Source: an uncultured Bacteroidales bacterium (GTDB lineage Bacteria; Bacteroidota; Bacteroidia; Bacteroidales; VadinHA17). Taken from it: a DNA stretch of 64,000 bases. The translations under genes and the position numbers were made by a program. Shown here piece by piece: positions 12,528 to 64,000 of the stretch. The notes under the pieces are model-generated. The model had not been told where the DNA came from, searched no databases, and worked only from the letters and a program-made list of their open reading frames with translations. Position 1 is the first letter of the stretch. Every line of letters begins with the position of its first letter. Location: the NCBI GenBank assembly GCA_963703935.1, contig CAVPGA010000005.1, positions 528,139 to 592,138 on the forward strand, in the 5' to 3' direction.

Positions 12528-12538
12528 ATATTGAGGTG

Positions 12539-13126: not shown

Positions 13127-13138
13127 TCATATAACTTT

Positions 13139-13189: not shown

Positions 13190-13261
13190 TACTTTCATAA
13201 GTACTATGCAATATTGAGAATATGAATTAATTTTGTCTATTAATTAAAATCAACCAAACCC

Positions 13262-13645: not shown

Positions 13646-13732
13646 GTGGCGGGTAATTTTACTCTTTTTAACGCCGTTCATTAATTGAATGTCGGAGGAT
13701 TGTTATCTTTGCAGGCACACATTATATATAAT

Positions 13733-14598: not shown

Positions 14599-14613
14599 AA
14601 TCGGAAAAACGGT

Positions 14614-45036: not shown

Positions 45037-47796
45037 TCACTTCTTTGTAGCCCTGATCTCTTCTTCGGGCGAGGTGAGAGTCATACCTGTTACAATGTTT
45101 TTATCATCAGACTGGAATTCAACAGTATATCCCTCCATGAATCTGACCGTAAACTTTGTTTCTGAAACGGGTGTCATTTCCATTTCAGGCTGACCAGGGA
45201 AAACAACGCTTAGTGTTTTGTTATCCTTCAGTATTACTTTTATTGTTTCCCCATCAAAAACGTAATCGCCTGCATACCTCTCCATTATCCCTGCTGCCAG
45301 TTCAACGACCGATGGTTTTGGCTGCACTGTAATTTTGGACTTTACATATTCAGCCTGATCAGTCATACCCGCCGACTGTTTGTCAGCTGCAATTCCGTTC
45401 AGTATCATTCCATCGAAATATGGCCGGATCTGAGGAGCGTAGACTTCCGGAATGGTGTCGCGGAATTTTACGATCATGTCTATCCCTTTCCTGAATTTAC
45501 CTGTATCCTTTATCCTCCTGAGAAAATTGGAGAAGGGCTGCAAAAGACTAAATTTCTCATTTCCCAAGGGCAATCTGTTGAACCTTTCGGCAAGGGAATC
45601 AAACTCATCTTCGGTAGCGTACAGGTATAAAGTACTTACAATTGCCCTGGAAAGCTCGCCCTTTACTTTCTCACGGGAGAGCTCCCTTGCCCTGGAAAGA
45701 GCTGTCAGACTGTCAATAGAACCAAGTGCCAATAAGGCATTGCCTGCCACGGAATAAGAAGAATCGTTTATTGCCTTGATGTACAGTTCCCTGTATTCAG
45801 GCTTCTGATATCTGCCAAGAGCTTCAATAGCAGTTGACCTGATGAGTGTGGAAGGATCGTTCTTTGCAAGACCGGCCAGTATTGGTTCAACCGAGGTTTT
45901 AATGGAATCGTTTATGAAATCCAGTCTCTGAATGGCAAATACTCTTAATCCCGGGTACCTGTCATTAATGGCATTTTTTAAAAACTCAAATGCTTTAGGA
46001 TCCTTTAACTGGTTCATTGCGGCAAAATCGATTGCTTCACGCCTGTCGAGATATAAACCTGCATTTTTATACTGGAAGGTATAATTATCAAGCGTTTTAT
46101 GATCTGTCTTTTCGCAGAGGAGTATCTTGTCTGCATCGAAATTTATAAGATCGGGTCTTACCCGTGAAGGGAAAGCAAATGTATCAGCCTGATGTTCAAC
46201 CCAAACCTTATAGCGTTTTTTAACTCCTTCCTGGTACAGGTCGATAGCTACCGGCAGCCTGAAGACCTTATCAGGCTGGGTTTGCTTTACAAATACCCTG
46301 GCATTTTGTGTCCGGCTGTCATAATCATAGCTGATATCAAGCTTCGGATGGCCGCTGCCATAGAACCACTGGTTCCAAAACCAGTTTAAATCCTGCCCGG
46401 TTACCTCTTCGAATGAAAGACGGAGTTCCTGCGCCTCAACGGCTTTAAACTTATAAGTTTCTAGAAACAGGTTTAATGATTTGTAGAAAGCGGAGTCGCC
46501 GACATAGTTACGAAGCATGTTGAGGATCCTGCCACCCTTCTGGTAACTGACAGCATCGAATAATTCCTCCCGGTTCCTGTAGTAGAAGCGAACAAGCTCT
46601 TTTTTCCCGCTGTTGCTGTACAGGTACGTCTGCATTCCTGAGAAATTGTGCGCATCACCTGCATCCTGACCGTATTTGTATTCATCCCACAACACTTCGC
46701 TGAAATCGGCAAAAGATTCATTCATTGCAATATTGCTCCAGCTTTCGGTAGTAACATAGTCCCCGAACCACATATGAAAAAGTTCGTGGGCAATTATTTC
46801 CTCCCACGAATTTCCATCGATAAGCTCCCTGGCATCCTGCTGTGCTGATTCGCCATGCACTGTGGCAGTTGTGTTTTCCATTGCGCCGCTTACATAATCT
46901 CTGACTACGATCTGGGAATATTTCTGCCAGGGAAAATCCACGCCCGTAATGTTTGAAAAGAAATTTATCATCTCAGGGGTAAGACCGAAGATCTTCCTGG
47001 CAACAGGAGCATATTCCTTTTCGACATAGTAGCTGACTTCCTTGCCTTCATACTGGTCTTTGATTACCGAATATTCACCTGCAGCAATCATCATCAGATA
47101 AGGAGCATGAGGCAGATCCATTTTCCAGGTATCGGTACGGGTCCCGTCCGGATGTTTCTTCCGCTTTACGAGCAGACCGTTTGAAAGTGTCTGGAATTCA
47201 GAAGGTACTGTCATGCTTATCTCATTTGTTGTTTTTTGATTCGGCTTATCGATTGTGGGAACCCATGCTGAATTTGACTCTGTTTCCCCCTGCGTCCAGA
47301 CCTGGGTGGGTTTATCCGTGTCCTTACCGAGGGGATCTATAAAATATAGGCCTTTGGCTCCAAATATTGCTGCACTGCCTGGTGCCTTAATGTCATTGGG
47401 TTTGGAAATATAATCAATGTATACTGTATAATTTTCTCCGGCCTTGTAGGTTTTATCAAGAGTGATATGAAGATTCAGTGTGTCATAGCTGTATTTCAAG
47501 GGAATATGCCTGCCGGCTTTTATAATAGAAACCTCATTGACGGCCATGCTTTTCGCATCGAGATTCAATGAGTCGGTTGGATAGAAGTGTGGTTTAAGGG
47601 TTATCCAGGCTTTTCCGGACATCCACGACCTCTGAAAGTCGAACCTGACGTCAAGCCTGGTATGGACCAGATCGTTGATCCTGTCAGGGGTTGCCCGGTA
47701 AATAGCTTTCCAGGCCTCTCCTTCCGGGTCTTTAGCCTGCTGTGAATACGAAATAATTGAGAAGAAAAGGAAACCTGCAATTATGATCTTCTTCAT
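45037..47796 (-). CDS. M1-family aminopeptidase (aminopeptidase N-like) with HEAT-like C-terminal region
   Basis: The ORF is an intact 919 aa with a signal peptide. It carries the GAMEN motif (VSGAMENTTA) and the zinc motif HELFHMWFGDYVTTESWSNIAMNESFADF (HExxH-x18-E). Confidence 0.9.
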   Translation of the reverse strand: MKKIIIAGFLFFSIISYSQQAKDPEGEAWKAIYRATPDRINDLVHTRLDVRFDFQRSWMSGKAWITLKPHFYPTDSLNLDAKSMAVNEVSIIKAGRHIPLKYSYDTLNLHITLDKTYKAGENYTVYIDYISKPNDIKAPGSAAIFGAKGLYFIDPLGKDTDKPTQVWTQGETESNSAWVPTIDKPNQKTTNEISMTVPSEFQTLSNGLLVKRKKHPDGTRTDTWKMDLPHAPYLMMIAAGEYSVIKDQYEGKEVSYYVEKEYAPVARKIFGLTPEMINFFSNITGVDFPWQKYSQIVVRDYVSGAMENTTATVHGESAQQDARELIDGNSWEEIIAHELFHMWFGDYVTTESWSNIAMNESFADFSEVLWDEYKYGQDAGDAHNFSGMQTYLYSNSGKKELVRFYYRNREELFDAVSYQKGGRILNMLRNYVGDSAFYKSLNLFLETYKFKAVEAQELRLSFEEVTGQDLNWFWNQWFYGSGHPKLDISYDYDSRTQNARVFVKQTQPDKVFRLPVAIDLYQEGVKKRYKVWVEHQADTFAFPSRVRPDLINFDADKILLCEKTDHKTLDNYTFQYKNAGLYLDRREAIDFAAMNQLKDPKAFEFLKNAINDRYPGLRVFAIQRLDFINDSIKTSVEPILAGLAKNDPSTLIRSTAIEALGRYQKPEYRELYIKAINDSSYSVAGNALLALGSIDSLTALSRARELSREKVKGELSRAIVSTLYLYATEDEFDSLAERFNRLPLGNEKFSLLQPFSNFLRRIKDTGKFRKGIDMIVKFRDTIPEVYAPQIRPYFDGMILNGIAADKQSAGMTDQAEYVKSKITVQPKPSVVELAAGIMERYAGDYVFDGETIKVILKDNKTLSVVFPGQPEMEMTPVSETKFTVRFMEGYTVEFQSDDKNIVTGMTLTSPEEEIRATKK

Positions 47797-48452: not shown

Positions 48453-49169
48453 CTACATGAATTTTTCCCTTTTCTGGAGATTGAGAAGAGCTGCGAGCAG
48501 GAAGAGTATTGTGCCGGTGACAAGTATGATCCTGTTTTTAAGTGTTATAATTGCCCAGGTTGTTTCATTTACATCATAGGGGGGATTGAAGGGATTCAGG
48601 AAAACATTCCACTGACTTTTACGCAAGGGGTCCATCAGGATCATAAAGAAGAGACCGAATATTATCATGACTACAGCTGTCCCGTTACCGTTCCTGATCA
48701 CTGTTGAGAGCATGAATGCCATCATTCCAAGAAAAAAAACGGGTATCATTACCTGTATGGTAACACTTACAAACCGGAATTTAACTATCAGAACTGAAGA
48801 GAGGTAGGTAAATGCCAGCATGATCAGGAATGCGATAATAAAGATCAGAAGAATCCTGACCAGCCAGACTTTGTACCTGTAGTTGGGTATTCCGAACAAT
48901 ATCTCGATCGTCCTGGCATCCTGGTCATTCTGAATACCAAAAACCGTCGGATAAAATATAAGCAGTATTCCGGAAAATATGAATACACCGTAAAGGTCGC
49001 TCATTCTTGAAACGTCATTTTCAAAAACATAAATTACCGACAGTCCAAGGTAAAAGAGAACAGAACCTGCAAGAAACCAGATGAATTTATTTGCGAAGAT
49101 TATCCTCAGATTATAGATAATCATTCTGTAAATAAGGTCGAGGATGTTTCGTAACTTAATGTTTTTCAT
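48453..49169 (-). CDS. ABC-2-type transporter permease (6 TM)
   Basis: The ORF is an intact 238 aa and hydrophobic, with about six TM segments. It lies 5 nt downstream of the ABC ATPase domain gene on the same strand. Confidence 0.65.
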   Translation of the reverse strand: MKNIKLRNILDLIYRMIIYNLRIIFANKFIWFLAGSVLFYLGLSVIYVFENDVSRMSDLYGVFIFSGILLIFYPTVFGIQNDQDARTIEILFGIPNYRYKVWLVRILLIFIIAFLIMLAFTYLSSVLIVKFRFVSVTIQVMIPVFFLGMMAFMLSTVIRNGNGTAVVMIIFGLFFMILMDPLRKSQWNVFLNPFNPPYDVNETTWAIITLKNRIILVTGTILFLLAALLNLQKREKFM

Positions 49170-49173: not shown

Positions 49174-52100
49174 TTACAGTTTGCCGTTTTTTGGTTTCCC
49201 GTTGTTATCCTTCTTTCTTAGAAGCCACAGATATGCATCCTCAAGATTGGGGCTTGCATTTATTGCAGTTTCCCATGGCTTGTTTTCCGAAATTACCCTT
49301 ACCCTGACATTTTCACCTTCCGACATATGGTGAACGACAAGATGTGTTTCAACAAAGCTGCTGAACTCATTGGCCGGGATATTAAACTGCCATACATGTC
49401 CTTCGGCTTCTTTGGTCATATCTATTGGTTTGCCGAAGTACCTGAGCATTCCTTTATTCAGTACTGCAACCTGGTTGCAGGAGCTTGAAATATCTTCAAT
49501 GATATGGGTTGAAAAGATTACGATCCGTTCGCGGCTGAGCTCAACCAGGAGATTTCTGAATCTGATCCGCTCCCGTGGATCGAGGCCGGCTGTGGGCTCA
49601 TCAACAACAAGGATCCTGGGCAGATGAAGCAGTATCTGTGCAATACCCATTCTCTGTTTCATTCCTCCGGAATAGGATCCGATTTTCTCATGCCTGCGTT
49701 CATCCATATGAACTGCCTTGAGGACATAGGTGACCCTTTCTTCCCTGATTGCCGGATCGGTAATGTTCTTCAGCATAGCCTGATAGTGAAGATATTCATG
49801 TGCAGTCATATTCTCATAGCTGCCGAATTCCTGGGGCAGGTAACCTATCAGTCCCTGCAGCTCCTCCCTCTTCTTGTGTATCGAGGCCGTTTATCCACAC
49901 CTTGCCGTAACTCTGCTCAAGGATGCCGCAGATAATTCTCATCAGGGTTGTTTTTCCGGCACCGTTTGGACCCAGAAGTCCAAACATTCCGTTACCGATG
50001 TTAAGCGAGACCCAGCTGAGAGCCTTAAAAGGCTTTTTCTTTTTCCCGATCAGAGGCACTGCTGCAACAATCTTGTAAACTCCTTTCCTGATATCTTTGA
50101 ACCTGCCTTCAAGCCTGTAGATATCAATGTTTTCCCTTGAAAGCTTTTGTCCTGTTTTGAAGATAAATAATCCAAGGAACCAGATAAATCCCAGGATCAG
50201 AACGACTGCAATATTATCCCATTTCATCTGAAACCAGATAAGATTCAGCAGAGGAATAATCCAGAAAACTGCAAAATCTGCAATAGCTGAAAATCTTTTC
50301 AGCCACATTTTTCTCCCTCCTGCAGTAAGGTTTGAGAAGAGCTCTTTAAAAGAGGTCCATATAGCTGACAGGAAGAACCAGGTCAGCAGGCTGAAGAGAA
50401 AAATCCAGAATCCTTTTTCAAGGTAGAAATAGGTAAAGTAAAAAAGAAAGCCAAACAGCGGAAGCTGCCATCCGATAGCGCTCATATCCTTCCAGGTCCT
50501 GTAATGATTCTGCAATCCGAGTCGTTCTCTTATCCTGGCTCCGGCCTTCCATTCCCTGGCCCACCTGTTGTCCCTTTCATAGATCTTTACCAGGCTCTGA
50601 ATATGTATATTAATCGGCTCATCAGGCGGAATGACGGTTTCTCTTGCTTTCCTCAGACTGTTCATCACAAACCAGGTTCCGGCAGGAACCAGGATCAATA
50701 CAAGAATTGTTGTTATTAGTTTCCAGAGAAATTTGTCTATATTTCTGTATATCAAAAATATAAAGAAGGCGAAAATTAAAAGCTGAATGGTTTTGTTCTT
50801 CCAGGAGAGTGAATTGAACCACCTGAGTGCATTTTCCAGGCCGGAATAAAATGTTGGAATAAAGATGAGTGTCAGAAGTGTGCTTAGTGTAAGACCTCCG
50901 ATCACTGTTATGGCAAATGAAGCTCCGATTGCTGATACATATTCAGCCTGTCCCATTGCAAGCGGTACCATTGCAATGACTGTTGTTGAGGCAGTGATCA
51001 GGATCGGTCGGATCCTTGCAACCCCTGCTGTCATAAGTGCCCTGTGCCTGCGGTTACCTCTCTTTCTCAGTATATTTGTATAATCAATAAGTATAATTCC
51101 ATTATTCACTACTACACCGAGCAGGATCAGAAATCCGGTCAGTGTGTTTGCATTCAGCAGCGAATTTCCTGTAAGTATAAGGGCAATCAAGTGATCCGAG
51201 TGCGGCAAGTGGAATGCTGAACATCAGAACAACAGGAGTAGCAAGAGATTCAAAAACAGCAGCAAGGATCATATAGATCAAGAAGAAAGGCAATTCCGAT
51301 CAGGTAATAGAAATCCTTAAGCTGGTTTTCTTCATGAACAACTTCAACTGCAATCCCTGAGGGAATATTCATCCCTGCAACTATTGATTCAATCTCTGTC
51401 CTTGCCACCTTCAAGAAGATCTTTGGAATTCCTGATTTCCTCATTGAAGTTATAGGTTACGGTTATCCTCTTTTCCTGGTTCTCCCTGTGAATATTGCCC
51501 ATGCCCGATAGAAAATATGATATTCGAAAGCTCCTCCATTTCCATTACCGAACCACCTGTTCCCGTTACTTCAAGATGTTTCAGATCATCAATTGTCTTA
51601 TCTGGATTCTTTTTTATTTCGCCACTCTCATCAGCATATTTTATCATGATATCATAGCTTTCGGTTCCCTGCTTGAAAGTTGCACCTGATGAGTATTCTC
51701 TTCCGAAAGTTGACAAGTGCCGATGACAGATTGCCAAGAGTGAAATTATTCCTTCCAATATAATCCATATCAAAAAGGAGATGAACTTCGGGTTTATTAT
51801 CCTGAACATTTATACTGGCATTGTTAATTGTGGAAGATCATCGACATATGATTTTATATCATCAGCAAGGTTTTTCATCTGTGTCGAAATTCTGTCCTTT
51901 GATGATTACACTTTCGTTCTGGGATCCTATACCAAGCAGATTCATGAAATCTGCACCCGGATTGATAATTTCACCTCCGCCGCCTCCTCCTGTAAATCCT
52001 CCACTTGTTGATAGTTCATCCATGCTTATTTCAGCAGAAGAAATATTTTTTGTCTTTTCCGAAATATCATTTTTAATTTCAGGAAGCGATCTTTTGCTTT

Positions 52101-53948
52101 TCTTATCCCACTCTTCCGGAAGATTGATTGTAACAGTTGCCTGCTCTTCTTCAATCCGGCTCACAATATCCTCTTTTTCAGGCAATGATGCAAGCCTTGA
52201 TTCAATTTCCGCAACAACTGCATCGGTTTTTTCAAGTGTCGATCCTCCGGGCATTGTAACACGTCAGCCTGAAATTAGGTGTCGTCAACTTCCTGGGTTG
52301 AGCTGATGCTTAAGTGTCAGACTAATCAGCAGAGCTGCAAAGAAAACCACCAGGGTTCCGATTATTGTTGCGGCAGGTTTTCTCATGCTTGCTTTCAGAA
52401 CAAGATGATAAGCCTGAATCAGCCTGTCGTGTATTGACAACTTTTTGAAATATCTGAAGATTTACTGTTTTTGATTCCCGGAAAGCAGGAAAAAGGTTGC
52501 CATCGGGATGAACAAAACCGCAACAAAAAGCGATACAAGCAGGGTTGAAATTATTGAAACACCAATGTTCTTTCCGATAATTTTAACCAGGAAATTTGTT
52601 GAAAAAATAAATGGAAGAAAGACTATCAACGTTGTAAGGGTTGATGCAAATATTGATCTCCATACTTCAGTTGTTCCCTGTTTGACAGCTGTTTCCGGAT
52701 CCTTTCCCTGTCCCGCAAGCCGGTAGATATTCTCAAGTACCACAACTGAATTATCGACAAGCATACCGATTGCAAGAGCCATTCCGACCAGTGTCAGACT
52801 GTTTATTGATATATCGAACGCATAGAAAAAATTAAATGCCGTATAAACTGAAACCGGTATTGACAGTCGCAATTATAGCTACAAGCCTGATATTCCTGAG
52901 GAAGAACCAGAGTATCAGGACCGCAAGAATTCCTCCGGTTATTGCAAGATTGATGATCTGATTTATGTTCTTTTCCATCATCTCGGCACTGTTGTTCTGC
53001 ACAACGATCTCAACTCCCTCGGAAGCAAGCTTTTTATTGAGTTCATTTACCTGTTCAAGAGCATCATGGGAAAGCTTTATAAGATTTGCCTGGTTGTCAT
53101 TTACAAGGGTCATTGTAACAGCATCCAGTCCGTTAACCCTGCTATATGAGCTTTGTTCCTTTACTCCGAAAAATATTTCAGCAACATCCCTCAGAAGAAC
53201 AGGACCCTGTTTGCTTCACAATTATGTTTCCGATCTCCTTTACATCAGTGTATTCAGAAGTGACATTTACAAAAAACTCATCCTGTCCGTCGACTACCTT
53301 TCCGGCAAATGTTTTATCCCTTCCGTTATTATTCAGCAGGTTCCTGACCTGTCCCATTGAGATCCCATTTGCCTTGCATGCTTTTTCATTAAGCCTTACC
53401 TCAATTGAGTTTTCCTGTCCGCCGTAAACCTGGACACCGGCAATTCCGTCGATATTCTCAAATTCAGGTTTGATCTCCCTGTCAGCTATATTCCTGATCC
53501 TGTCTATACCTCCTTCGCCTCTGACCTGCAGCTCCATGAACTGGTTTGTGAGTTGCTCAAGGTCTATCTTAATTACATTTATTATAAACTCCTCAGGGAT
53601 AGTGTTTTTAACAATATCAATTTTTTCCTGGAGCTTCAGATTGGCATATTTGAGGTCGGCATTCTGATTGTAATAGATCATTATCGTCCCGTATCGCGAA
53701 GAGATATTTGATTCGATCTTTTCAATGCCCTCAAGAGTGCCGATTGCTCCTTCAATAGGGATAATTGCCTGTGTTTCAATGTAGGACGGATCGATTTCAA
53801 GTGGAGTACCAACCTGAACGATCAATGTGGGAAGCTGGGCATTTGGGAAAAGTTCGACCGACAGTCTTTTGTATGAAACATAGCCAAGCATGGTAAGCCC
53901 TATAAAGAGCATGCTGATAAGAATCCTTCTCTTTAAAATAAAATTCAT
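49174..53948 (-). CDS. RND (AcrB-type) efflux permease fused in frame to ~6 extra TM helices and an ABC ATPase domain (~1590 codons), frameshifted in this assembly
   Basis: The RND N-terminus is MNFILKRRILISMLFIGLTMLGYVSYKRLSVELFPNAQLPTL (53948). Colinear RND pieces run down to 51208. The single ORF 49814-51208 contains the RND C-terminal TM11-12 block (GVVVNNGIILIDY...RIRPILITASTTVIAMVPLA...LIFIPTFY), then TM-rich sequence, then Walker A (LLGPNGAGKTT). After one frame change near 49860, the piece 49174-49809 carries YSGGMKQRMGIAQ and ILVVDEPTAGLD. Confidence 0.6.
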
Positions 53949-53982
53949 TTCATTTTCTTAATTGAGTTTGTCAGCGCTCAAT

Positions 53983-56900
53983 CTACGTTTTTCCTCCGGT
54001 TACCCTTTGACTCAGACTATCGAAAACCCAGTAAACACAGGGAATTACAACCAGGGTCAGAAGGGTTGACGAAACCAATCCTCCGATCACTGCCAGGGCC
54101 ATTGGAGATCTCAGTGATGCACTTTCACCAATTCCGATTGTTAGCGGAAGAAGTGCAAGAATTGTTGTAAGGCTTGTCATCAGGATTGGTCTGATCCTTT
54201 GAGTTCCTGCAAGGACTATTGCCTCTTTCTTTTCAATTCCTTTTTCTCTTAGCTGGTTTATCCTGTCAATCAGTAATATTGCATTATTGACCGCAATACC
54301 TCCCAGCATGATTATCCCGATATATGCCATCATGTTCAGGCTTTTCCCAAGGAGGAAGAATGTCAGTACAGTTCCAACTCCCGCAAGGGGTATTGTAAGC
54401 ATTATAACAAATGGCTGGATTATAGATTCAAACTGAGCTGCCAGTACCATGAATACCAGATACCAGTGACAGGATAAGTGCAAAAGTGAGATTCGACATT
54501 GATTCTTTTCTCTTGAGCTCTTCACCTGTAAATTCAATTTTATAATCGACCGGAAGAGCTATGGATTTCAATGATGCTTCAGCATTCCTTTACCACCTGA
54601 TCGAATGGCATGGAACTGTTCACCATTGCATATATATAGCATGTCCTCGACTGGTTTCTTCTTGTTATCTCCCGGGGACTTACAACTGTTCTTATTGCTG
54701 CAAGTTCACTCAGCGGTACCTTTATGTTGCCGGCTGTTATCATCAGATCCTTCAGCTGATGAAGGGATATATCGCCAAGCTTGATGGTTATATCTTTCAT
54801 CTCACCATCTTTTTCGAAACTGCCTGCTGATGAGCCTTCCAGGTAGCTTTTTATCTGGTTGATGACATTTTCAACGGTATACATTATAATAACTTGTCTT
54901 AAACCTGTCAATTGCTACTTCCACCTCCGGTGTACCCTCATCAAGTGAGGTTGTGATATTATAAAGTCCCTGATTATTTTCAAGAGAATTTCTTGATTTC
55001 ATCAAGTATTCTTTCCAGTTCATCGTACTCTTTTCCTGATATCTCAAGGGCAAATGGTGCAGATGATGTTCCGAGGGAAGACTGCAGTGCCGTCTCTTCT
55101 CTTATAAAACTTACTTCAAGATCAGGAATGGTTTTAAGGTAATTTTCAATAAGGCTTATTGCCTCTTCAGTTCTTGCAGCAAAGTCATCAGTCAAAATTA
55201 TCTTTAATGAGGCGGTATTTTCACCGCTGATACCTGAAGATGTGCTTATTGTTGAAGTTTTATCCTCTCCTGTCTGGGCGTATATCATTCTTATTTTATC
55301 CGGAAGCAGTTCCCTGATTATCTCCTCAGCTTTTTGTGCAGTACTGAAGGTTCGCTCAAGATTGGTTCCCTCAGGCAGTTTAAGCTTTACAGTGAATTCA
55401 GCTGATTCCGATTTTGGCATAAATTCACTTCCAAGCTTCGGCAATAAGGAGGACAGATATGCCAAGAAGGAGTAACCGAAAGAAAAATTACAAGACCTCT
55501 TCTCTCGACAGTTTTTTCAAGGAATTCTTTATACCAGTTAAAACGAACAGGTGTGGAAATGTCCACTTTTCTTTTCTTATCTGGAAAGAGTGTGGAAACA
55601 AGCATCGGGATCACCAGCATTGCAACAAGAAGCGATGAAAGCAGGGCAAAAGCCACAGTCCAGGCCTGGTCCTTGAACATTTCACCTGAGGCCCCATGAA
55701 GATAAACGATAGGAAGGAAAACAACTATTGTTGTGACTGTTGAAGCCGTAATTGCTCCACCGACTTCCCCGGTCCCGTCTATTACAGCTTCTTTTAAGGA
55801 CATTCCCTCCTCACGGTTCCTGGTAATATTCTCAAGAACCACAATTGCATTGTCAACAAGCATTCCGGCCCCAAGCGCCAGTCCTCCCAGTGTCATTATG
55901 TTAAGGGTGAGATGGTTAAAATACATCAGGTTGAATGTGGCAATTATTGAAATGGGAATTGCAACACTGATGACAAGGGTTGTTCCTATCCTTCTGAGAA
56001 AAACATAAAGAATGAAAACCGCAAGAAGTATTCCTATGATAAGGGTATTCTTCACCTCGCCAATTGCATTGTGGATATAGTTGCCCTGGTCCTGCACTTT
56101 TATAAACTCATAGCCGGGCAATGCTTTTGCAAGTTCCGCAAATGCCTTATCAAGACTTTTTACTGCATCAACAGTATTGAATTTTGGCTCTTTGTAAACA
56201 GATAGTCCAATGCATCGTTCACCATTGATTGTTACAATATTTTCAGGATCCTTATTTTCAAATTTTATTGTTGCAACATCTCTAAGGTAAACCGGCACCC
56301 TTTCCGACGAGGATGCAGCTTCAGCGCCGGCGGTTGCAGATGTGGCGGGTTGCTTAAAACCAACAATTATATTTTCAAGATCATTGAGGTCCCTAAGCAC
56401 ACTTACTCCTTTAACGACATATTTGAGCCCCATATCAACAATTGAACCACCTGATACATTCCTGTTGTAGTTGCTGATCTGCAATGCAATAGCATCGGAA
56501 GTAAGACCAAATGATTCAAGTATATATTTGTTGGTTTCAATTACAACTTCACTTTCTTCCTTCCCTGTCAGTCTGACATCGGCAACACCTTCAATCCTGA
56601 CAAGCTCATTCCTGATATAATTCTCTGCAATTTTCCGCAGTTCATCCATATTGGTGATGCGTTCATTCTTCAGTCCAACGATCATCACCGGAGCAGCATT
56701 CGGATCATACTGGGATATTGTAAAATCTTCAAGATCAGAGTTCTGGCTGAATGAATTAAGTTCTTTCTGAAGATCCAGAAATGCTTCATCCATATCCTTG
56801 TTCCAGTCATATTCAACAGTGATTGTTGCAGAACCGACCTTTGAAACTGATGAAACCTGCGTCACATCGCTCTGACGCATTGAAAGTGATTCGATCTGAT

Positions 56901-57096
56901 CGACATAGTTCTTTTCAATCTCTTCCGGAGGTTTTTCACCGGCTTTCAGCTCAATATAGATCTTCGGATTATTCAGATCGGGGAACAGATCAGTCCCAAG
57001 CTTACCGAAGGAGATAAATCCCAGCAGAACTATCCCCAGCACCAGCATCAGTACTGTTACCGGGTATTTTACAGCAAATTGGGCAATTCTGTTCAT
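53983..57096 (-). CDS. RND (AcrB-type) efflux permease, first of two in tandem, frameshifted in this assembly
   Basis: The N-terminus is MNRIAQFAVKYPVTVLMLVLGIVLLGFISFGKLGTDLFPD. Seen are GMLVDNAIVVLENI, and C-terminal GGIAVNNAILLIDRINQL...RIRPILMTSLTTILALLPL. The pieces are 55387-57096, 54980-55465, 54871-55053, 54579-54911 and 53983-54537. Confidence 0.85.
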
Positions 57097-57101
57097 ATCG
57101 G

Positions 57102-58152
57102 TTATTTAATGATTTTTACCTTCGACCTGTTGCTGAGAGTCTCAAAACCGCAAGTGACTACACGTTCATTTTTTGCCAGTCCCCTTATAACTTCAACATC
57201 AGTAATATTCTCAAGCCCGGTTTCAATAATTCTTTCTGCAGCCACACCCCGGTCGACAATAAACACAGTTTTTCCTCTCTGGCGGGAAAGGATTATACTT
57301 TTTGGAATTACAATTACAGAGTCTTTACGGTTTGTAACAATATCAGCTTTTACAAACATTCCGGGCCGGAGAAGGTAATCAGGATTATCAATTGAGATAT
57401 TACCTTTGAATGTTCTTGTAGTCGGCATTAATGGCAGGTGACAATTGGGTTATACTTCCGGTTATTGTGTCCTCCGGAATAGTGTAGTTTGTAAGTTTTA
57501 CAAGCTGACCCGGTTTTATGACGGTAATGTATTTTTCAGGAAGCTGAACATCCATATACATTATCTGGTAGTCCATTATTTTTGCAATTGTTTTTCCGGT
57601 TTCAACCTGTGTGCCCTGAGTATAATAGGGCAGATCAACAATCACACCGTCGATCGGAGCGCTATCTTTGTCTTGTCAAGCTGGAGCCTGGCAGTTTCAA
57701 CAGTGGTTTTGGCATTTTCATAGTTTATACCTGCTGTTTTCAGCTCTTTAAGTGTCACTCCTCCTTTTTCGTAAAGTGATTCCTGTTTCCTGAGCTCACT
57801 TTCCGTAAGCTCCAGATTAAGTTAGTTGGTCTCCATCTTGACGGAATTTACATATTCCCTGTCTTCAAGCCGTGCAATCAGCGCACCGGCTCTTGATCCT
57901 GTCACCAAGCTGCCATGGCCTGTCTGGTCCGTGGATTTTTTTCAAGGAAATATGAAGCAGTGATCTTTGATTTCAGTTCTATTTCACCTTTCGGGAAAGC
58001 AGTACCTGTTGTATTGACGAATTCTTCAATTGATTTTAGCCTTATCTCTTCAACCGAAACAGGAATTTCAACATCGGCAGTCAGATTCTGATCCTGTTCC
58101 TGCATCCTGCAAATGCCATTATCATGGCAATGATTAGAAGGCTTTTTTTCAT
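57102..58152 (-). CDS. Efflux RND periplasmic adaptor (membrane fusion protein), frameshifted in this assembly
   Basis: The lipoprotein signal is MKKSLLIIAMIMAFAGC (ATG at 58152). The pieces 57902-58105, 57400-57645 and 57102-57428 have the barrel-sandwich/beta-barrel style ending VIRGLAKNERVVTCGFETLSNRSKVKI. Confidence 0.8.
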
Positions 58153-59652
58153 TTTATTAGTTTTATAATTATTCTTATTATCAATTGTCATTACCGGAGT
58201 CACCGGTTCTTTTTTCTCAAAGTCGTAAAGAGTCTGAATCTTAAGATTCAGAAGTTCAAGTTTATAGGAAATAAGCGAATTGGTGTATGAGAGCTGTTTT
58301 TCGGACAGCTGGTTCTGATAGATGTTCAGATCCATACCGGTAAGGTCACCGTTCTTATATTTTTCAAGATTGAGATCGTATGTAAGCTGTGCATTTGTAA
58401 CGGATTGTTGTGCTATTCCAATCTGATTTTGCAGATTTAGAAGGTTCCTGTAAACTTTTCGCACACCAAGTATAATATTATTCTGCTCCTCTTCCAGGCT
58501 TATTTTTTCTGTTTCAATTGAGGCTTCTGTTGCTTTAATCCTGGATTTTCTTTCACCCCAGTCCCACAGCGGGATAGACAGGGACAATGCAACGCTTTCA
58601 TTATCAGTAGGATTTGCATAGATATCACCGAAGTTTTCATTGTCCCCGAAAAGTCCGACGGAAAGACCGAGGCTTCCTTTGAATTCATTCAGAGCTTTGG
58701 TCTGGATAAGATCAAACTGAGAAGATTCAATTGATATTGATCTTTGCCTGAGTTCCATCCTGTTTGCCAGACCCTGATCAATTGCAAATCCAATATCAAT
58801 CTGTACAGTGTCAACGGCAATATTTGGAAGAACAATAAGATCATCATACAGGCTCATACCAATCAGAAGCTTGAACTCATCCTTTGCATTTTCGAGTGAG
58901 ACCTGCTTATTTTCATAATCCGATTTTGTTGTTGCAAGGTTCAGTTCAGCCTGGAACATCTCTTCCCGTGCAGAGATCCCTGCATCAACCTTGTTTTTAA
59001 TGATTTCATAGCTCTTTTGCATATTCTCATATGCCTGCTTGGCAATATCAAGACTCTGCTGCTGCTGATAAACATAGTAAAAGGCCTGTGTAACTCCTCT
59101 TTCCAGCGACAATAGCTGAATGGCATAGTCAAGTTGTGAATTTTCAAGGGCAAGCTGAAGTTCCTTTAACTGAAGTTTTGTCCTGTTATAGGTAAAAAGC
59201 GGCTGATCGAGATTAAGTGAGAGGTTATTGCTGAATCCTTTTGTAGATTGATTAGCATATTCGCTGTATGAATCATTATAGCCAAACCTGTTTATCAGTG
59301 AAATCCTTGCATCAGTGAAAACGATAGGCTGGGATACTGTAAACAATCCGTAACTCTCTGTGGTTTTGGTAGAGTTCCATTGTGAGATCAGGTCAATGAA
59401 TGAACGGTTCTGATTGTATTCGATGGGATTGATGGTAAGAGAAAAGTTTGATTTCAGGGCCGCATTCTGGGCATTGAGGTTCTCCTGGCTCCTTATAAGG
59501 CCAAGCCTTGTTTTCCTGATGGCCGGGCTGTTTGACTCCGCAATTGACAATGACTGCTCGAGGGTAAGTGCTTGCTGGGAAACCCCCGGCAGCGCTAATA
59601 AAAACAGTAGGATTAAGATCCCTGCTCTTGCGATAAGACGTTTTATATTCAT
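58153..59652 (-). CDS. TolC-family outer membrane efflux protein
   Basis: There is a signal peptide, the start LTLEQSLSIAESNSPAIRK, and two internally similar coiled halves typical of OEP/TolC. In this assembly the ORF (58081-59652) has no stop before the adaptor ATG, so the 3' boundary is inferred. Confidence 0.8.
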
Positions 59653-59983: not shown

Positions 59984-62900
59984 CTAAAGGGGACTTTTAA
60001 GAACCCCCTTTAGGGGGCAGGGGGTAAAACCAGGAGGGGATCCCTTTATCCCTCTCCAGTTCTGCAGCACCCATTTTACCGCATCCCCGATAACATAGTT
60101 GCCGATCGATTGATTTGTCATTACAACAGTAGCTGTATCGGTTGACAAATAATATCTTCCCAGGTTATTCCATCCGCTTTCGGCATTTTCATACTCGAGG
60201 GTGATCTCTTCAGTCCCCTGATCATGATAGATCCTGAAATGCAGGTCCCGGCAGGGGCTTGTGCCGCCCCTTCCTCTTTCACCCGGCGGTGGCGGCGGAC
60301 CAGGGGGACCTCCATTCCGGACCACCACTCCGTCGCTTGCCTTGCCGATATAAGTGTAAATATCATAAAAACCCGGTTTGGCAATTGTTGCTTTCCACGT
60401 CAGAATCCTGTCACCTGTGCCGCTGCGGGTATAGACGGATGAGCGAATGTATTTGCCAAAATAGGATGACTGTACAACCGGCTGCCAGTATTCCGGGGCT
60501 CCCATTAATCTGATCTGTTCATAGGACTGCCCGTTTTTGTTCTGAACACCAAGGATCTTTTTCAGAGGACTCTCGTTGCTTAGTCTTGTAAATTTGAAGC
60601 CGGGATCCTCATTGTCAACTATGGTTTCAAAGGGATCTTTGAAAACCCCGATTTCTGTGAGTATTTCCTCATCTTTCAGGTCAATATTCCTGTTTTTGGC
60701 TTTAACAATCTCCTCAACAGGCAGGGTTATCTCTCCGGGGATGTTTTTAGCAACGAGTGCATTAATAAGAAGTGCCCTGGGTTGACCATCAAGTACCATG
60801 GAGATTTTTTTTGCTTCCATAGGTCCAAGAAAAACAATTTTTGCGATATCGGCTGCCTCCATTCCCCGGCCCTGGCCGGAAATCGCTACAGTGAATCCCC
60901 CTCCCGGTCCGGTTGAAACATCTACCCTCCGATCGTCGGCGCCCGAACCGCCGGTCCGGACTGAAACATTAAATAAGCCGCTAACAGGTTCTAAATTCGA
61001 AGCCGTGAATGTTAACAGGTATCTCACCCTGTCTCCCACAATAATTTCGGTTGCCTGAAGTTCTGAAAAAAGAAAACCCGGCTGCTCCTTGCTGTTAAAC
61101 CAGTTATCGAGGAAAGGATAGAATTCAAAACCAAATTTCTGCTTTATTTCTTTATTCATGTCGGAGATATCGACACTTTTAAAAGTATTATCATCAATAT
61201 ATTTTAGAAACCAGGTTTTAAATTCTTCAATTCCTGCTTTTGATCTTAATAGATTGAACAGATAATCTCCTTTAATAGTCAAAATTGTTCTTATTGTATC
61301 ACCTCCCGGATTTTTAGCGAGAAGATCTTTAAAACTATTGTCTTTCAGCACCAGATTTGCCCTGTCGTTCTCGGACAGGCTGCCGGAATATTCAAAAAAA
61401 TTGAATTCAGGTGTGGGCTGTACGACTTTCTGGAGATGAGATTCAAAAACAGCATTTATCACAGGGAAATCATCAGAGTAGAAATTATTCTTAAAAAAAT
61501 AGAAGCTGGGTCCAAGCCGATACCTCATAGGCTCATTCCAGGCAACTCCGTTAACATACCTGAACCGTTCACCACTTATGAATGTGTTACGGATAAAATC
61601 ATTGAATATTCTGACCTGCAATTCTTTATCAGTTATAACCTGGTTATTCCGGGCCATTCTTTTCTTCTGGCGGGTAAATCGTTTCTTAAATCCGGCGTTC
61701 TGAAGGGATACTAATCTTTCAGGGAGAAGAACCATTGATGGCTGCACTTCAGCCCTGGTCTGAGTGCTCCTTTTCGGGAAGGAGTAAAATTGGACAGGGA
61801 CCTCTAAGATACTCAGTGTTTTGAATGGATATTTTGTAGAAAAATTTGTTTCCAGGTCTCTCATTATTCCTGACACAAGCAGTGACAGAGTATCTTTTAA
61901 CTCTGCAAGATCTTTTTTATAATAGTCATTTCCTGGATAATGATAGCTTATATATTCAAGTGAATCAACTGTAAGAGTATCTGTCAGATAATTGCCTATG
62001 GCAAGAGTCAGACCGGTAAGCGGCTGGTCAGGCCTGAAACTAAAAAATCCGTCTCCGGCTGCCGGCTTTCCCTGCGAGACTGCTTTTAGCCCGTTTTTAG
62101 TTTGAACATTTAGTGAATACCTGGTAAAATCGATTTTTATTTTTGCCGGGTTAGAGGGATAATAATTCAGAGCTGCAACAGGATACCAGTTGCTTTCAGG
62201 TGTAAGCAGAACATACTTCTCAGTGAGGAATACCTGGCGTTTCCTGATATTAAGCATTTCGGCACGGTAGGGATCGTCTTTGAGGTTATCGGAATAGTCG
62301 GGATAGCAGAAAGCCTCATCAATAGTACCGGAATAATATATTTTTAAGCTGTCAGACTGATCCTTTTCAAGCATCCTCCCGGGATCAATTATTATAATAT
62401 GATTTGAAAGCCTGAAAGGTAAGCTCTTTATTGCCGGAGGTTATTTTCGAAACATTGAGGGAGGGATTGAGAGAGAAAAGATATTTGTCAAGCGGCTGCT
62501 TATTATTATTGATTATTTTAATATCAGAAGATGCCTCAAATGATGAACCATTATGAGTAAATTCAATTAACGCATCGGAGATTGTTGTGAATTTCTCATT
62601 TTCAAACTCCTTGTTTGTTTCTAAAACCAGCTTCTTATCATTGACCTTATTGATATAAGAGGACCATATTTTTGATCCCGTGAAGAAAGCTCCGGCGGTA
62701 AATAGAGTCAGAAGGACTATTGTGAGAGTTCTGTGGAATTTTGATTGCGGCAATCGTTTAAATGTGAGAATTGTTCCCATTACAAGTGCCATCCCAAGAA
62801 AAAAATAGAACAGCCTCTGGTTTATAATAAAACCAGGATTATCAAATCCTATCATGCCTGATTTAAAAATCGGAAGTCCGAATGCCATATAGTCAAAAAT

Positions 62901-63498
62901 CGATCCTGCCCTGTAACCAGAGGTAAAACATATCAAGAGCAGCATATACCAAGAAGTATCAGAAATGTAATTGCCTGGTTCCTGATCACTGACATGAGCA
63001 TAAAAGCCAGTCCGAGGCTGAAAACAATTGTTGGAACACAAATTATAAGAAGGTAGATAAATATGACATCAGATCTATTGACATGCTTTTTGAAATGATG
63101 TTCATGAGCAGGCCAATGCATAGGATAATTATATCAAGGCCGAGGAAAAGCCTGAGTATACCCAATGTTTTACCCATTATATATTCAAAATTTGACATCG
63201 ACCTTGTGTAAAGAACTTCATTGGTATCCAGTTTTTTGTCTCTTTTCAGGAAATCGGCAGCAAGAAAAATCACAACTATTGCCTGTCCGATATTGAGAAG
63301 ATAAAGATTGACAAGAGGAACTGACGATGGTATTGAAACCAGATCCCATGGTTCATCACCTATCGGGGAAAAGAGACCGATATTCATAATGGTGAAAATG
63401 AAAAGAGCGCCAAGTGAAAAGAGCCTGAAGAACCAGCTTCTTCTCAGGGTTTTTGCTTCATACTTTGCAACTGTTCTTATATTATGAAGAAATGCCAT
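59984..63498 (-). CDS. ABC-2-type permease fused to an aminopeptidase-N-like (apparently non-catalytic) region and a golvesin-C-like C-terminal domain, frameshifted in this assembly
   Basis: The N-terminal multi-TM part is at 63043-63498 and 62385-63041. The pieces join (..ELTFQAFKS / NHIIIIDPGRMLEKDQ..) into the 796-aa ORF 59984-62374. The C-terminal block WKATIAKPGFYDIYTYIG...YHDQGTEEITLEYENAESGWNNLGRYYL...VVMTNQSIGNYVIGDAVKWV matches the golvesin/Xly-type C-terminal domain as I remember it. Confidence 0.6.
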
Positions 63499-63513
63499 CC
63501 GGTAGACTTTGTA

Positions 63514-64000
63514 TTAATCCGATATTGAAGTTTGCAGTTTATGTTCCATAAAATATACATAAGCATGTTCAATATTCGGAATAATAGGTATTGAATTAAA
63601 TTCAGGAACATTATCTGAAACGATCTGTACTTCCCAGCCGTCTCAACCGGAATTGTTGAAATTACATTATATTGTTCTTTTACCGTTTCATATTCAAAAG
63701 GGGTCAGGATAAGCTTAAATACATGACCTTCAGCATGTTTTACAAGATTTTCGGGTGAACCTGAAAAGACCAGCTCTCCTCTGTTTAGAAGGGCCATTCC
63801 CTGACATGTTGATGATATATCACCAACAATATGAGTTGACAGAATAATAGTTACATCGTTCTGGCTCAGCTGTGAAAGTATATTTCTGAACCTGATCCTT
63901 TCATCGGGATCAAGACCTGTTGTTGGCTCATCAACAACAATTATCCTGGGATTTCCGATAAGAGCCTGGGCTATTCCCAGCCGCCGTTTCATACCTCCCG
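63514..64000 (-). CDS. ABC transporter ATP-binding protein (N-terminus outside window; one frameshift near the C-terminus)
   Basis: Seen are SGGMKRRLGIAQALIGNPRIIVVDEPTTGLDPDERIRF (signature and Walker B) and the H-loop STHIV. The C-terminal piece ends PNIEHAYVYFMEHKLQTSISD-stop (63514). It is a paralog of the ATPase domain at 49174-49980. Confidence 0.85.

What the first reader, a model, noticed from the sequence alone, without database searches (positions are those of the whole stretch)
49174..51208. RND efflux permease reading in frame into extra TM helices and an ABC ATPase domain
The uninterrupted 464-aa ORF 49814-51208 (minus strand) begins with the conserved RND C-terminal block (GVVVNNGIILIDY..RIRPILITASTTVIAMVPLA..LIFIPTFYSGLENALRWF, ending near 50815). 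It continues without a stop through about 230 residues containing roughly six hydrophobic helices, for example IQLLIFAFFIFLIY, LITTILVLILVPAGTWFVM, LPLFGFLFYFTYFYL, FWIFLFSLLTWFFLSAIW, FAVFWIIPLLNLIWF and AVVLILGFIWFLGLFIF. It then enters an ABC nucleotide-binding domain, with Walker A LLGPNGAGKTT at about 49945-49980. The signature SGGMKQRMG and Walker B ILVVDEPTAGLD lie in the next piece, down to 49174. There is no Met that could start a separate gene between the RND end and the second extra TM helix. An ABC-2 permease gene follows 5 nt downstream. A single polypeptide combining a proton-motive-force RND pump with an ATP-driven ABC module is not an architecture I know to be described. It could couple the two transport cycles, or regulate one by the other.
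Basis: partly seen in the sequence, partly recalled or inferred. Interest (0 to 1): 0.7.

Follow-up and report, generated by a model that had tools for sequence, protein, structure and literature searches.

The report
RND efflux pump fused to ABC ATPase
The flagged stretch is a real, widely conserved gene in uncultured Bacteroidota and related phyla that joins a complete proton-driven RND efflux pump subunit to an ATP-driven ABC motor domain in one ~1,590-residue protein, an architecture I could not find described in any paper.

Summary
ORF 49814-51208 (minus strand) runs in frame from the RND C-terminus through six extra membrane helices into an ABC ATPase.

It is an internal piece of one gene, 53948->49174. 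In this window that gene is broken by about 15 small indels, 13 of them insertions. With the insertions removed there are no stop codons and dN/dS is 0.03-0.05, so they are most likely assembly errors.

Of 65 orthologous loci not cut by a contig end, about 60 carry a single ORF of 1,537-1,604 aa. Many come from Illumina assemblies. Relatives at 28-42% identity in Cyclobacteriaceae, KSB1 and Latescibacterota MAGs have the same ~1,570-aa layout.

The layout is a full 12-TM RND domain, 2 TM helices, ABC strand beta1, a 4-TM insertion, then the rest of a fully canonical NBD.

The gene sits in a conserved cluster: a free paralogous ATPase, a large permease with a dead M1-like domain, OMF, MFP, RND#1, the fusion, and a small ABC-2-like permease.

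Best reading: an ABC-2-type module hard-wired to a probably heteromeric tripartite RND pump. How the two are coupled is inferred, not shown. No literature on it was found.

The parts
49174..53948 (-). RND#2::NBD fusion gene, about 1,591 codons. In the window it is broken by about 15 indels.
   Evidence: tblastn of the intact L002 orthologue covers residues 1-1579 across frames. Nucleotide alignment to 4 intact orthologues shows 13 insertions and 2 deletions. After correction there are 0 stop codons and dN/dS is 0.03-0.05.
50816..53948 (-). Complete RND permease domain (12 TM helices and the periplasmic domains).
   Evidence: Orthologue L077 matches ACR_tran at residues 2-1030 against model positions 3-1018, 534 bits. 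The window ORF matches model positions 904-1018.
50663..50791 (-). Two extra TM helices: TM13 at 50747-50791 and TM14 at 50663-50719.
   Evidence: Hydropathy analysis. The AF2 model of homologue P0076 has helices at residues 2-19 and 23-52 with pLDDT 88-95.
50573..50614 (-). Displaced first beta-strand of the NBD (INIHIQSLVKIYER).
   Evidence: The free paralogous ATPase starts 'RIQITELTKAY', against 'RIQIRNLTKIY' in the fused protein of the same locus. Splicing this strand onto the NBD extends the GldA model match to position 3, a gain of 3.2 bits. AF2 predicts a strand at residues 64-73 with pLDDT about 95.
50159..50476 (-). Four-TM insertion (TM15-18) inside the beta1-beta2 hairpin of the NBD.
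   Evidence: Hydropathy analysis. AF2 helices at residues 102-125, 129-157, 164-189 and 192-218. The insertion is conserved in homologues down to 28% identity.
50033..50134 (-). Conserved cytoplasmic connector (ENIDIYRLEGRF...GKKKK).
   Evidence: Nearly invariant across 60 orthologues. The motif N-I/L-D..GRF/L is kept in distant clades.
49177..50032 (-). Remainder of the NBD: beta2, Walker A (49946-49972), frameshift at about 49873, Q-loop (49825-49842), signature (49651-49671), Walker B (49579-49614), H-loop (49501-49515) and a C-terminal domain.
   Evidence: Pfam ABC_tran matches. Column identity is 0.93-0.98 across orthologues. The closest solved structures are the ABCA3/ABCA4/ABCA1 NBDs, TM_1403 and NosF.
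48453..49169 (-). Small 6-TM ABC-2-like permease, 238 aa, translationally coupled to the fusion gene.
   Evidence: Found downstream in 54 of 60 loci, 22 of them with a 4-nt overlap. There are only sub-threshold ABC2_membrane_2/3/4 hits. The family has at least 6,206 clusters in metagenomes.
53983..57096 (-). RND#1, the unfused paralogue (about 1,038 aa, frameshifted in the window).
   Evidence: An ORF of about 1,045 aa lies directly upstream in 51 of 60 loci. L077 matches ACR_tran at 728 bits. It is 27% identical to RND#2.
57102..58105 (-). Periplasmic adaptor (MFP), in several ORF pieces.
   Evidence: ORF pieces in the window. The L077 orthologue matches RND_mfp TIGR01730 at 195 bits, above its cut-off of 94.9.
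58081..59652 (-). Outer-membrane factor (TolC-like).
   Evidence: Pfam OEP, E = 6e-46.
59984..63498 (-). Large protein in 3 ORF pieces: N-terminal ABC-2-like TM region, degenerate M1-peptidase-like region, and a Golvesin_C domain.
   Evidence: Pfam Golvesin_C and weak ABC2_membrane_4 hits. Intact homologues of 1,124 and 1,133 aa occur in L085 and L087. No HEXXH or GxMEN motif is present.
63477..64000 (-). Free ABC ATPase (3' part; it runs off the window end), a paralogue of the fused NBD.
   Evidence: Pfam and NCBIfam matches. The L085 free ATPase is 45% identical to the fused NBD over 270 aa, E = 2e-77.

Best explanation
What is shown:
- The window holds one gene, 53948->49174 on the minus strand, for a protein of about 1,590 aa.
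- The protein has, in order: a complete AcrB-type RND permease; two extra TM helices; the first beta-strand of an ABC nucleotide-binding domain; a four-TM insertion; and the rest of a canonical NBD of the DrrA/GldA/ABCA type with a C-terminal domain.
- Each inserted block has an even number of helices, which keeps every NBD part in the cytoplasm.
- The gene belongs to a conserved cluster: free paralogous ATPase, large ABC-2-like permease carrying a catalytically dead M1-like/Golvesin_C part that is probably extracytoplasmic, OMF, MFP, RND#1, RND#2::NBD, and a small ABC-2-like permease.

What is inferred:
- RND#1 and RND#2 form a heteromeric trimer that docks to the MFP and OMF as a tripartite pump, by analogy with MdtBC.
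- The NBD tethered to RND#2 dimerises either with a second RND#2 NBD or with the free paralogous ATPase. It then drives the ABC-2-like permease(s) held next to the RND membrane domain by the six extra helices.
- The machine would then work as a hard-wired two-stage exporter. ATP hydrolysis extracts or flips an amphiphilic substrate from the cytoplasm or inner leaflet to the periplasmic side. The proton-driven RND trimer picks it up there and expels it through the MFP-OMF channel.
- The frameshifts in the window copy are assembly errors, so the gene is functional in the organism.

The confidence of 0.6 is a blend: about 0.95 or more that the fusion is real and conserved, and about 0.4-0.45 for the specific relay mechanism.
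For: The fusion is real:
- About 60 of 65 uncut loci have a single ORF of 1,537-1,604 aa. It carries ACR_tran at 2-1030 and ABC_tran at 1314-1449.
- Divergent relatives at 28-42% identity are 1,550-1,587 aa long, with the linker always at about residues 1035-1310. They come from Cyclobacteriaceae, KSB1 and Latescibacterota MAGs.
- The linker is under purifying selection, with dN/dS 0.04-0.08.

The NBD is probably active:
- Walker A, Q-loop, signature, Walker B (with the catalytic Glu) and H-loop are nearly invariant. Column identity is 0.93-0.98, higher than the RND part at about 0.83.

The NBD is split:
- Supported by comparison with the free paralogue, the splice test, and an AF2 model with pLDDT 86 and pTM 0.71.

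The operon is conserved:
- The small permease is downstream in 54 of 60 loci and RND#1 is upstream in 51 of 60.
- OMF and MFP are identified.
- The same cluster, including the free ATPase and the large permease, occurs in the distant loci L081, L085, L086 and L087.

The RND part keeps D407, R971 and T978 (AcrB numbering), as does its unfused partner.

The indels look like errors:
- 13 of 15 are insertions, not in homopolymers.
- The corrected gene has 0 stop codons and dN/dS 0.03-0.05.
Against: - No experiment or complex model supports the relay. The substrate is unknown.
- A trimeric RND and a dimeric ABC module are symmetry-mismatched. The 2:1 heterotrimer and the pairing with the free ATPase are both conjecture.
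- The small permease reaches no curated ABC-2 threshold and has no match among solved structures.
- Both RND paralogues lack AcrB's D408 and K940, with Asn at both positions. The best PDB match, ZneA, likewise has no Lys at the position of K940 in the TM10 alignment. Proton coupling is therefore assumed, not demonstrated.
- A Met at the end of TM14 in 55 of 60 close orthologues leaves room for an additional, separately initiated NBD protein.
- Indels cluster in the efflux genes while neighbouring genes are intact. That pattern would also fit very recent inactivation.
Confidence: 0.6

Rival explanations
1. ATP-energised or ATP-gated RND pump. NBD dimerisation is transmitted through the six extra helices to the RND membrane domain. 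It would replace, boost or gate the proton-driven cycle, in the way ArsA turns the ArsB carrier into a primary pump, or as mechanotransmission works in MacB and NosDFY. The ABC-2-like permeases would serve as the force-transmitting partners rather than as a substrate path.
For: - Covalent tethering is conserved over deep divergence.
- The NBD is the most conserved part of the protein.
- Both RND paralogues have Asn in place of AcrB's D408 and K940.
- The NBD's structural neighbours include NosF, and IMG names one small permease as the permease subunit of an 'ABC-type transport system involved in multi-copper enzyme maturation'. As I recall, that wording corresponds to NosY, and NosDFY is a mechanotransducing ABC system rather than a classic transporter.
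- The large permease carries a big non-catalytic domain, probably extracytoplasmic.
Against: - D407, R971 and T978 are all retained.
- RND pumps without a Lys at the K940 position, such as ZneA, exist without any ATPase.
- The unfused RND#1 has the same relay variant, so the ATPase does not compensate for a defect specific to the fused subunit.
- A dedicated permease gene translationally coupled to the NBD is what an ordinary ABC transporter has.
Confidence: 0.2
2. The fusion only ensures co-assembly, membrane anchoring or equal dosage of two pumps that otherwise work independently. Alternatively, an internal start at the conserved Met yields a separate TM-anchored ATPase alongside the fusion protein.
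For: - A Met is present at WFVMNSLRK in 55 of 60 close orthologues.
- Gene callers often annotate proteins of about 430-476 aa that start inside the linker.
- Gene fusions of operon neighbours are common.
Against: - That Met is absent in distant clades, which still keep the single ORF.
- Most of the short 'ATPase' calls sit on 1-3 kb contigs or next to frameshifts. One 526-aa representative clusters with a 1,567-aa member.
- The linker and the 4-TM insertion are under strong purifying selection. That is more than a passive tether would need.
Confidence: 0.15
3. The in-frame junction is an artefact: a sequencing or assembly error removed a stop codon or joined two genes in this error-rich contig.
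For: The window copy carries about 15 indels in 4.8 kb, and the neighbouring efflux genes are also fragmented.
Against: - There is no indel between 51191 and 49873.
- The same junction is in frame in about 60 independent genomes, including Illumina assemblies, and in distant phyla.
Confidence: 0.02

Closest known systems
MdtABC-TolC (E. coli/Salmonella), a tripartite RND pump with two different RND subunits (MdtB, MdtC) forming a heterotrimer
   Same: Two RND paralogues lie in tandem behind a single MFP gene. An OMF is present in the cluster. Both subunits give full-length ACR_tran matches.
   Different: - They are not orthologues: the MdtB and MdtC equivalog scores are 233-353 bits against cut-offs of 1,584 and 1,774.
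- RND#1 and RND#2 are only 27% identical.
- D408 and K940 are replaced by Asn.
- One subunit carries 6 extra TM helices and an ABC ATPase, which no described Mdt-type pump has.
ABC-2 / type V ABC exporters with DrrA-, GldA- or ABCA-type ATPases (DrrAB, GldAFG, NosFY, ABCA1/3/4)
   Same: The NBD's best sequence and fold matches are these families. A small 6-TM permease gene follows the ATPase. All catalytic motifs are present.
   Different: - The NBD is covalently attached to an RND permease.
- Its first beta-strand is separated from the rest by a 4-TM insertion.
- Scores fall below the GldA cut-off (172 against 402.6) and the DrrA cut-off (163 against 312).
- The permease does not reach any Pfam ABC2_membrane threshold.
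MacAB-TolC, an ABC-driven tripartite efflux pump
   Same: An ABC ATPase is genetically linked to an MFP and a TolC-like OMF.
   Different: No MacB-type FtsX permease or periplasmic domain was found. The MFP partner here is of the RND-adaptor type (TIGR01730), and full RND permeases are present.
ArsAB, in which a secondary carrier (ArsB) becomes an ATP-driven pump by binding the ArsA ATPase (from my own knowledge)
   Same: It is a precedent for one transport system using both a carrier-type membrane protein and an ATPase.
   Different: The ATPase family is different, the two proteins are not covalently fused, there is no RND fold, and there is no tripartite envelope-spanning assembly. The analogy applies only to the rival mechanism.
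Functional cooperation of single-component inner-membrane pumps with RND tripartite pumps (two-step efflux; from my own knowledge)
   Same: It is the same logic as the proposed relay: an inner-membrane transporter delivers substrate to the periplasmic side, and the RND pump removes it across the outer membrane.
   Different: In the known cases the transporters are separate, unlinked proteins. Here the two would be physically fused and co-transcribed.

Membership tests
RND permease superfamily (Pfam ACR_tran / AcrB-like) | Full-length match to the ACR_tran model, covering 12 TM helices and two large periplasmic loops. | tested here: met
   L077 orthologue: residues 2-1030 against model positions 3-1018, 534 bits, gathering threshold 28. 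Window fragment: model positions 904-1018.
RND permease superfamily (AcrB-type HAE1) | AcrB proton-relay residues D407, D408, K940, R971 and T978. | tested here: not met
   D407, R971 and T978 are invariant. D408 is Asn and K940 is Asn in 60 of 60 RND#2 sequences and in 43-45 of 47 RND#1 sequences. In the TM10 alignment, ZneA likewise has no Lys at the K940 position.
NCBIfam RND_permease_2 (NF033617) subfamily | Score at or above the curated cut-off of 1,250 bits. | tested here: not met
   RND#2 scores 455 bits and RND#1 scores 560 bits.
ABC ATPase (Pfam ABC_tran) | Walker A, Q-loop, ABC signature, Walker B with the catalytic Glu, and H-loop. | tested here: met
   GPNGAGKT, YLPQE, SGGMKQR, VVDEPTAGLD and STH are nearly invariant in 60 orthologues. 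ABC_tran scores 94.6 bits, above the gathering threshold of 25.
ABC ATPase (canonical NBD) | A contiguous NBD in which strands beta1 and beta2 form a short hairpin. | tested here: not met
   About 180 residues with 4 TM helices lie between beta1 (KIYER) and beta2 (KKKPFKAL).
MdtBC-type heteromeric RND pump | Two RND genes in one operon with a single MFP. | tested here: met
MdtBC-type heteromeric RND pump | Orthology to MdtB and MdtC, meaning NCBIfam equivalog cut-offs are reached. | tested here: not met
   353 and 345 bits for RND#1, and 233 and 253 bits for RND#2, against cut-offs of 1,584 and 1,774.
MdtBC-type heteromeric RND pump | Physical heterotrimer with defined stoichiometry. | not testable with these tools
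   This needs co-purification or cryo-EM. No multimer prediction was available.
ABC-2 (type V) exporter | A permease that belongs to an ABC2_membrane family. | tested here: inconclusive
   ABC2_membrane_2/3/4 hits have E-values of 0.0014-0.4 in 1-4 of 12 members, all below the gathering scores. There is no PDB sequence match. Six hydrophobic segments are seen by reading the translation.
GldA (gliding-motility ABC ATPase, TIGR03522) | Score at or above the equivalog cut-off of 402.6 bits. | tested here: not met
   172-180 bits.
MacB-type tripartite ABC pump | FtsX/MacB permease with a periplasmic domain fused to the NBD. | tested here: not met
   No such Pfam domain was found in the fusion or the neighbouring genes.

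The most novel reading that the evidence does not exclude
This would be a dual-energy efflux machine. ATP hydrolysis by NBDs covalently attached to RND protomers, and anchored through a unique 4-TM insertion in the NBD, would directly drive or gate the conformational cycle of a tripartite RND pump. PMF and ATP would then power one transport cycle. That would make it a new class of envelope-spanning transporter, widespread in uncultured members of the FCB group (Bacteroidota and related phyla).
Probability: 0.2. Interest if true: 0.9.

Novelty: new variant of a known kind. Interest (0 to 1): 0.72.

Why it matters
- RND pumps (proton-driven) and ABC pumps (ATP-driven) are treated as separate energetic classes of inner-membrane transporter in tripartite efflux systems. 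The 2021 Chem Rev review (PMC8277102) lists ABC, RND and MFS as alternatives.
- A conserved natural protein that joins the two challenges that separation. It offers a ready-made system for asking how cytoplasmic or inner-leaflet export is handed over to periplasmic capture by RND pumps, or whether ATP can act on an RND cycle.
- The split NBD, with four membrane helices inserted in its first hairpin, is an unusual ABC architecture in its own right.
- The system is not rare. The genome scan found 121 related stretches, of which the best 80 loci were kept, among one genome for each of 185,579 species. The partner permease has at least 6,206 sequence clusters in metagenomes. All of these are uncultured, which probably explains why it has not been studied.

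Tried and rejected
The single-protein query worked.
- Look-up of the window ORF P0001 in the contig index: not on record, so the source contig and its reads could not be examined.
- First AF2 run on P0003 with a shallow alignment: pLDDT 70 and pTM 0.42, not usable. A run with the diverse alignment A4 gave pLDDT 86.
- Foldseek against the PDB matched only NBDs. No known fold was found for the six extra helices.
- 'NIDIYRLEGRF' as an alternative candidate for beta1: rejected, because it gave no extension of the model match.
- Whether the fused RND has lost proton coupling relative to its partner: both paralogues carry the same D/N/N/R/T pattern, so the test does not discriminate.
- Paralogy between the small permease and the N-terminus of the large permease: BLASTP E = 2.1 and hhalign probability 0.35%, so not supported.
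- Profile search of the permease against PDB sequences: nothing credible.
- Long-decayed pseudogene: rejected on dN/dS, the absence of stop codons, and the 13:2 insertion bias.
- Literature searches for RND-ABC fusions and for the large permease: nothing relevant.
- Rfam scan of the window: only a tRNA.
Full report
**Observation**

On the minus strand, ORF 49814..51208 (464 aa) is free of stop codons. Pfam places the last 115 positions of the AcrB model (ACR_tran 904-1018) at residues 7-122. It places the start of ABC_tran at residues 403-446.

Between these two matches lie six hydrophobic helices. Walker A is at 49946-49972. The ABC signature, Walker B and H-loop follow in the next ORF, 49174..49809.

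Three corrections are needed:
- The ORF is an internal fragment. Its TTG start is only the first start codon after a frameshift-induced stop.
- The ATPase changes frame at about 49873.
- The permease begins 4 nt after the stop codon, not 5 nt.

**The window copy is riddled with indels**

Everything from 57096 down to 49174 is chopped into short ORFs. I aligned 53948->49174 with four intact orthologous coding sequences. The alignment shows 13 window-specific insertions of 1-2 nt and 2 deletions, mostly not in homopolymers.

None of these lies between 51191 and 49873, which is the stretch holding the RND/ABC junction.

After removing the insertions, the gene has no in-frame stop codon. Its dN/dS against the orthologues is 0.03-0.05, and 0.04-0.08 in the linker. 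The 13:2 insertion bias, the absence of nonsense mutations and the strong purifying selection argue for assembly errors rather than decay.

The neighbouring M1 aminopeptidase gene (45037..47796) is intact, so the errors are clustered. I could not inspect the reads because the contig is not in the look-up index.

**The fusion is real and conserved**

A database search with the 276-aa linker found independent metagenomic proteins in which the RND C-terminus reads in frame into the linker. These are P0008, P0018, P0038, P0045, P0057 and, at 40% identity, P0024.

A scan of one genome per species found 121 related stretches, and 80 loci were fetched. Of the 65 loci where the reading frame is not cut by a contig end, about 60 have a single ATG-to-stop ORF of 1,537-1,604 aa, most of them 1,578-1,595 aa. 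Many are Illumina assemblies. The few exceptions carry shorter, interrupted reading frames; several come from the same 'MFD' MAG series as many intact loci, and I did not examine them further.

The L077 protein (1,587 aa) matches ACR_tran over residues 2-1030 and ABC_tran over 1314-1449.

An exhaustive HMMER search with the window linker found 106 clusters at 50% identity. They include about 17 full-length proteins of 1,550-1,587 aa at 28-42% identity, always with the linker at about residues 1035-1310.

Source names place these proteins in Cyclobacteriaceae, candidate division KSB1 and Latescibacterota MAGs. IMG already labels some 'multidrug efflux pump subunit AcrB/ABC-type multidrug transport system ATPase subunit'.

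Short 'ATPase-only' calls turn out to be contig-edge or frameshift fragments:
- L081 has a frameshift exactly in TM14.
- The 526-aa protein P0076 clusters with a 1,567-aa member.

**Anatomy of the extra region**

The order is as follows:
- the end of RND TM12
- two TM helices
- a K/R-rich cytoplasmic stretch
- 'INIHIQSLVKIYER'
- an amphipathic helix
- four TM helices
- a highly conserved connector (ENIDIYRLEGRF...GKKKK)
- 'PFKALSWVSLNI' and Walker A

Three lines of evidence show that 'INIHIQSLVKIY' is the NBD's first beta-strand, displaced by a 4-TM insertion in the beta1-beta2 hairpin.

1. In distant loci, the free paralogous ATPase of the same operon begins 'RIQITELTKAY', against 'RIQIRNLTKIY' before the insertion in the fused protein. 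The rest of the two proteins is 45% identical over 270 aa.
2. Splicing the strand directly onto the NBD extends the GldA model match from position 16 to position 3 and adds 3.2 bits. The alternative candidate 'NIDIYRLEGRF' adds nothing.
3. An AlphaFold2 model of P0076 built on a diverse alignment (pLDDT 86.3, pTM 0.71) predicts six helices and a 10-residue strand at that position with pLDDT about 95.

The even helix counts (2 and 4) and the positive charges on the predicted cytoplasmic loops give a consistent topology (reading of the sequence).

Foldseek finds only NBD matches: TM_1403, LptB, NosF and ABCA3/7/4. The helices match no known membrane fold.

By sequence, the NBD is closest to the ABCA3/4/1/7 NBDs and to bacterial ABC-2-type ATPases. 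It falls below the curated GldA and DrrA cut-offs.

Across 60 orthologues the NBD is the most conserved part of the protein (0.93-0.98 column identity). The RND part is at about 0.83 and the linker at 0.67-0.88. All catalytic motifs are intact.

**Genomic context**

In L077 the order is OMF, MFP, RND#1 (1,047 aa), RND#2::NBD, then a 239-aa membrane protein whose start overlaps the stop codon by 4 nt.

The small membrane protein is present downstream in 54 of 60 loci, and RND#1 is present upstream in 51 of 60. RND#1 and RND#2 are 27% identical.

The small protein has six hydrophobic segments and only sub-threshold ABC2_membrane hits. It has no PDB relative by sequence. Its family has at least 6,206 clusters in metagenomes, nearly all named 'hypothetical protein'.

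In distant clades (L085/L086 from a marine metagenome, L087 and L081) the cluster starts further upstream. Two more genes are included there:
- a free ABC ATPase of about 295 aa
- a protein of about 1,125 aa with ABC-2-like TM helices, an M1-peptidase-like region and a Golvesin_C domain

The same two genes lie in the window at 63477..>64000 and 59984..63498. The M1-like region lacks both HEXXH and GxMEN, so it is not a peptidase.

**Proton relay**

I aligned 60 RND#2 and 47 RND#1 sequences to E. coli AcrB, MdtB and MdtC. D407, R971 and T978 are invariant. D408 and K940 are Asn in both paralogues.

In the TM10 alignment, the best PDB match, the heavy-metal pump ZneA, also has no Lys at the K940 position. 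The pattern therefore does not show loss of proton coupling. It also does not single out the fused subunit.

**Mechanism**

Shown:
- a conserved single polypeptide that joins a complete RND permease to a complete, probably active, membrane-anchored NBD
- a conserved operon with MFP, OMF, a second RND, a second paralogous ATPase and two permease-like proteins

Inferred (confidence about 0.4-0.45 for the specific relay):
- RND#1 and RND#2 form a heteromeric trimer, as MdtBC does (PMC8277102).
- The tethered NBD pairs with another RND#2 NBD or with the free paralogue, and drives the ABC-2-like permease(s) held beside the RND membrane domain.
- An amphiphilic substrate is moved by ATP to the periplasmic side, then expelled by the proton-driven RND/MFP/OMF channel.

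The main rival (about 0.2) is that ATP hydrolysis acts on the RND cycle itself or on periplasmic domains by mechanotransmission. The similarity of the NBD and small permease to NosF and NosY, and the large non-catalytic domain, probably extracytoplasmic, point weakly that way. A passive co-assembly role or internal initiation (about 0.15) is not excluded. The artefact explanation is rejected.

**Comparison and novelty**

The parts belong to known kinds: RND tripartite pumps, ABC-2-type ATPases and MdtBC-like paired RND genes. Curated family thresholds for MdtB/C, RND_permease_2, GldA and DrrA are not met. MacB-type features are absent.

Two features set the protein apart: the covalent RND-ABC fusion and the NBD split by four TM helices. 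Five full-text searches and a comprehensive 2021 review of tripartite pumps gave no description of such a protein. These searches cover open-access text only.

I therefore rate it a new variant of known kinds. It is sequence-known but uncharacterised. It is widespread in uncultured Bacteroidota, KSB1 and Latescibacterota, and of clear interest to transport biologists.

Noticed in passing
window 59984-64000 (-); L085 1400-5680; L087 1329-5610: A free ABC ATPase lies upstream of the efflux genes. It is 45% identical to the fused NBD and has the same C-terminal 'NLEDAY' domain. Next to it is a protein of about 1,125 aa with ABC-2-like TM helices, an M1-peptidase-like region lacking HEXXH and GxMEN, and a Golvesin_C domain. 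This pair is conserved across distant clades, so the unit is probably a 7-gene cluster with two ABC modules.
   Followed up: partly
window 49174-58105 (-): Indels are concentrated in the efflux genes (MFP, RND#1, RND#2). There are about 15 in the fusion gene, 13 of them 1-2-nt insertions outside homopolymers. The adjacent 919-aa M1 aminopeptidase gene is intact. This pattern suggests locally unpolished long-read assembly.
   Followed up: partly
window 58081-58150 (-): The OMF ORF ends '...KMKKSLLIIAMIMAFAGCRNRIRI'. It reads into what looks like the lipoprotein signal peptide (lipobox AGC) of the next gene, the MFP. This is probably another frameshift or a lost stop codon.
   Followed up: no
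window 45037-47796 (-): An intact secreted M1 aminopeptidase with HELFH and GAMEN motifs, HEAT repeats and DUF3471 lies about 650 nt downstream of the small permease on the same strand. In L077 the genes downstream of the permease are on the opposite strand, so the linkage may not be conserved.
   Followed up: partly
window 48453-49169 (-): The small permease family has at least 6,206 90%-identity clusters in metagenomes. Nearly all are named 'hypothetical protein', with no Pfam domain on record. It is an abundant, uncurated membrane protein family with invariant motifs: GIQNDQDA..IEI.FG.P.YRYK, RNGNGTA and WNVFLNP.
   Followed up: partly
L075 (JBLNAO010000361.1): A contig binned as a Chloroflexota MAG carries a fusion locus 71% identical to the Bacteroidales type. 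This is probably bin contamination rather than transfer.
   Followed up: no
L015, L020, L021 (all from CAZGGZ01): One MAG contributes three loci with the fusion. Two of them have identical match coordinates, which suggests strain variants or duplicated contigs in the bin.
   Followed up: no
window 12456-12527 (-): A single tRNA is the only Rfam hit in the window. The region 9965-14835 has no ORF of 150 aa or more, which may reflect further frameshifted genes.
   Followed up: no
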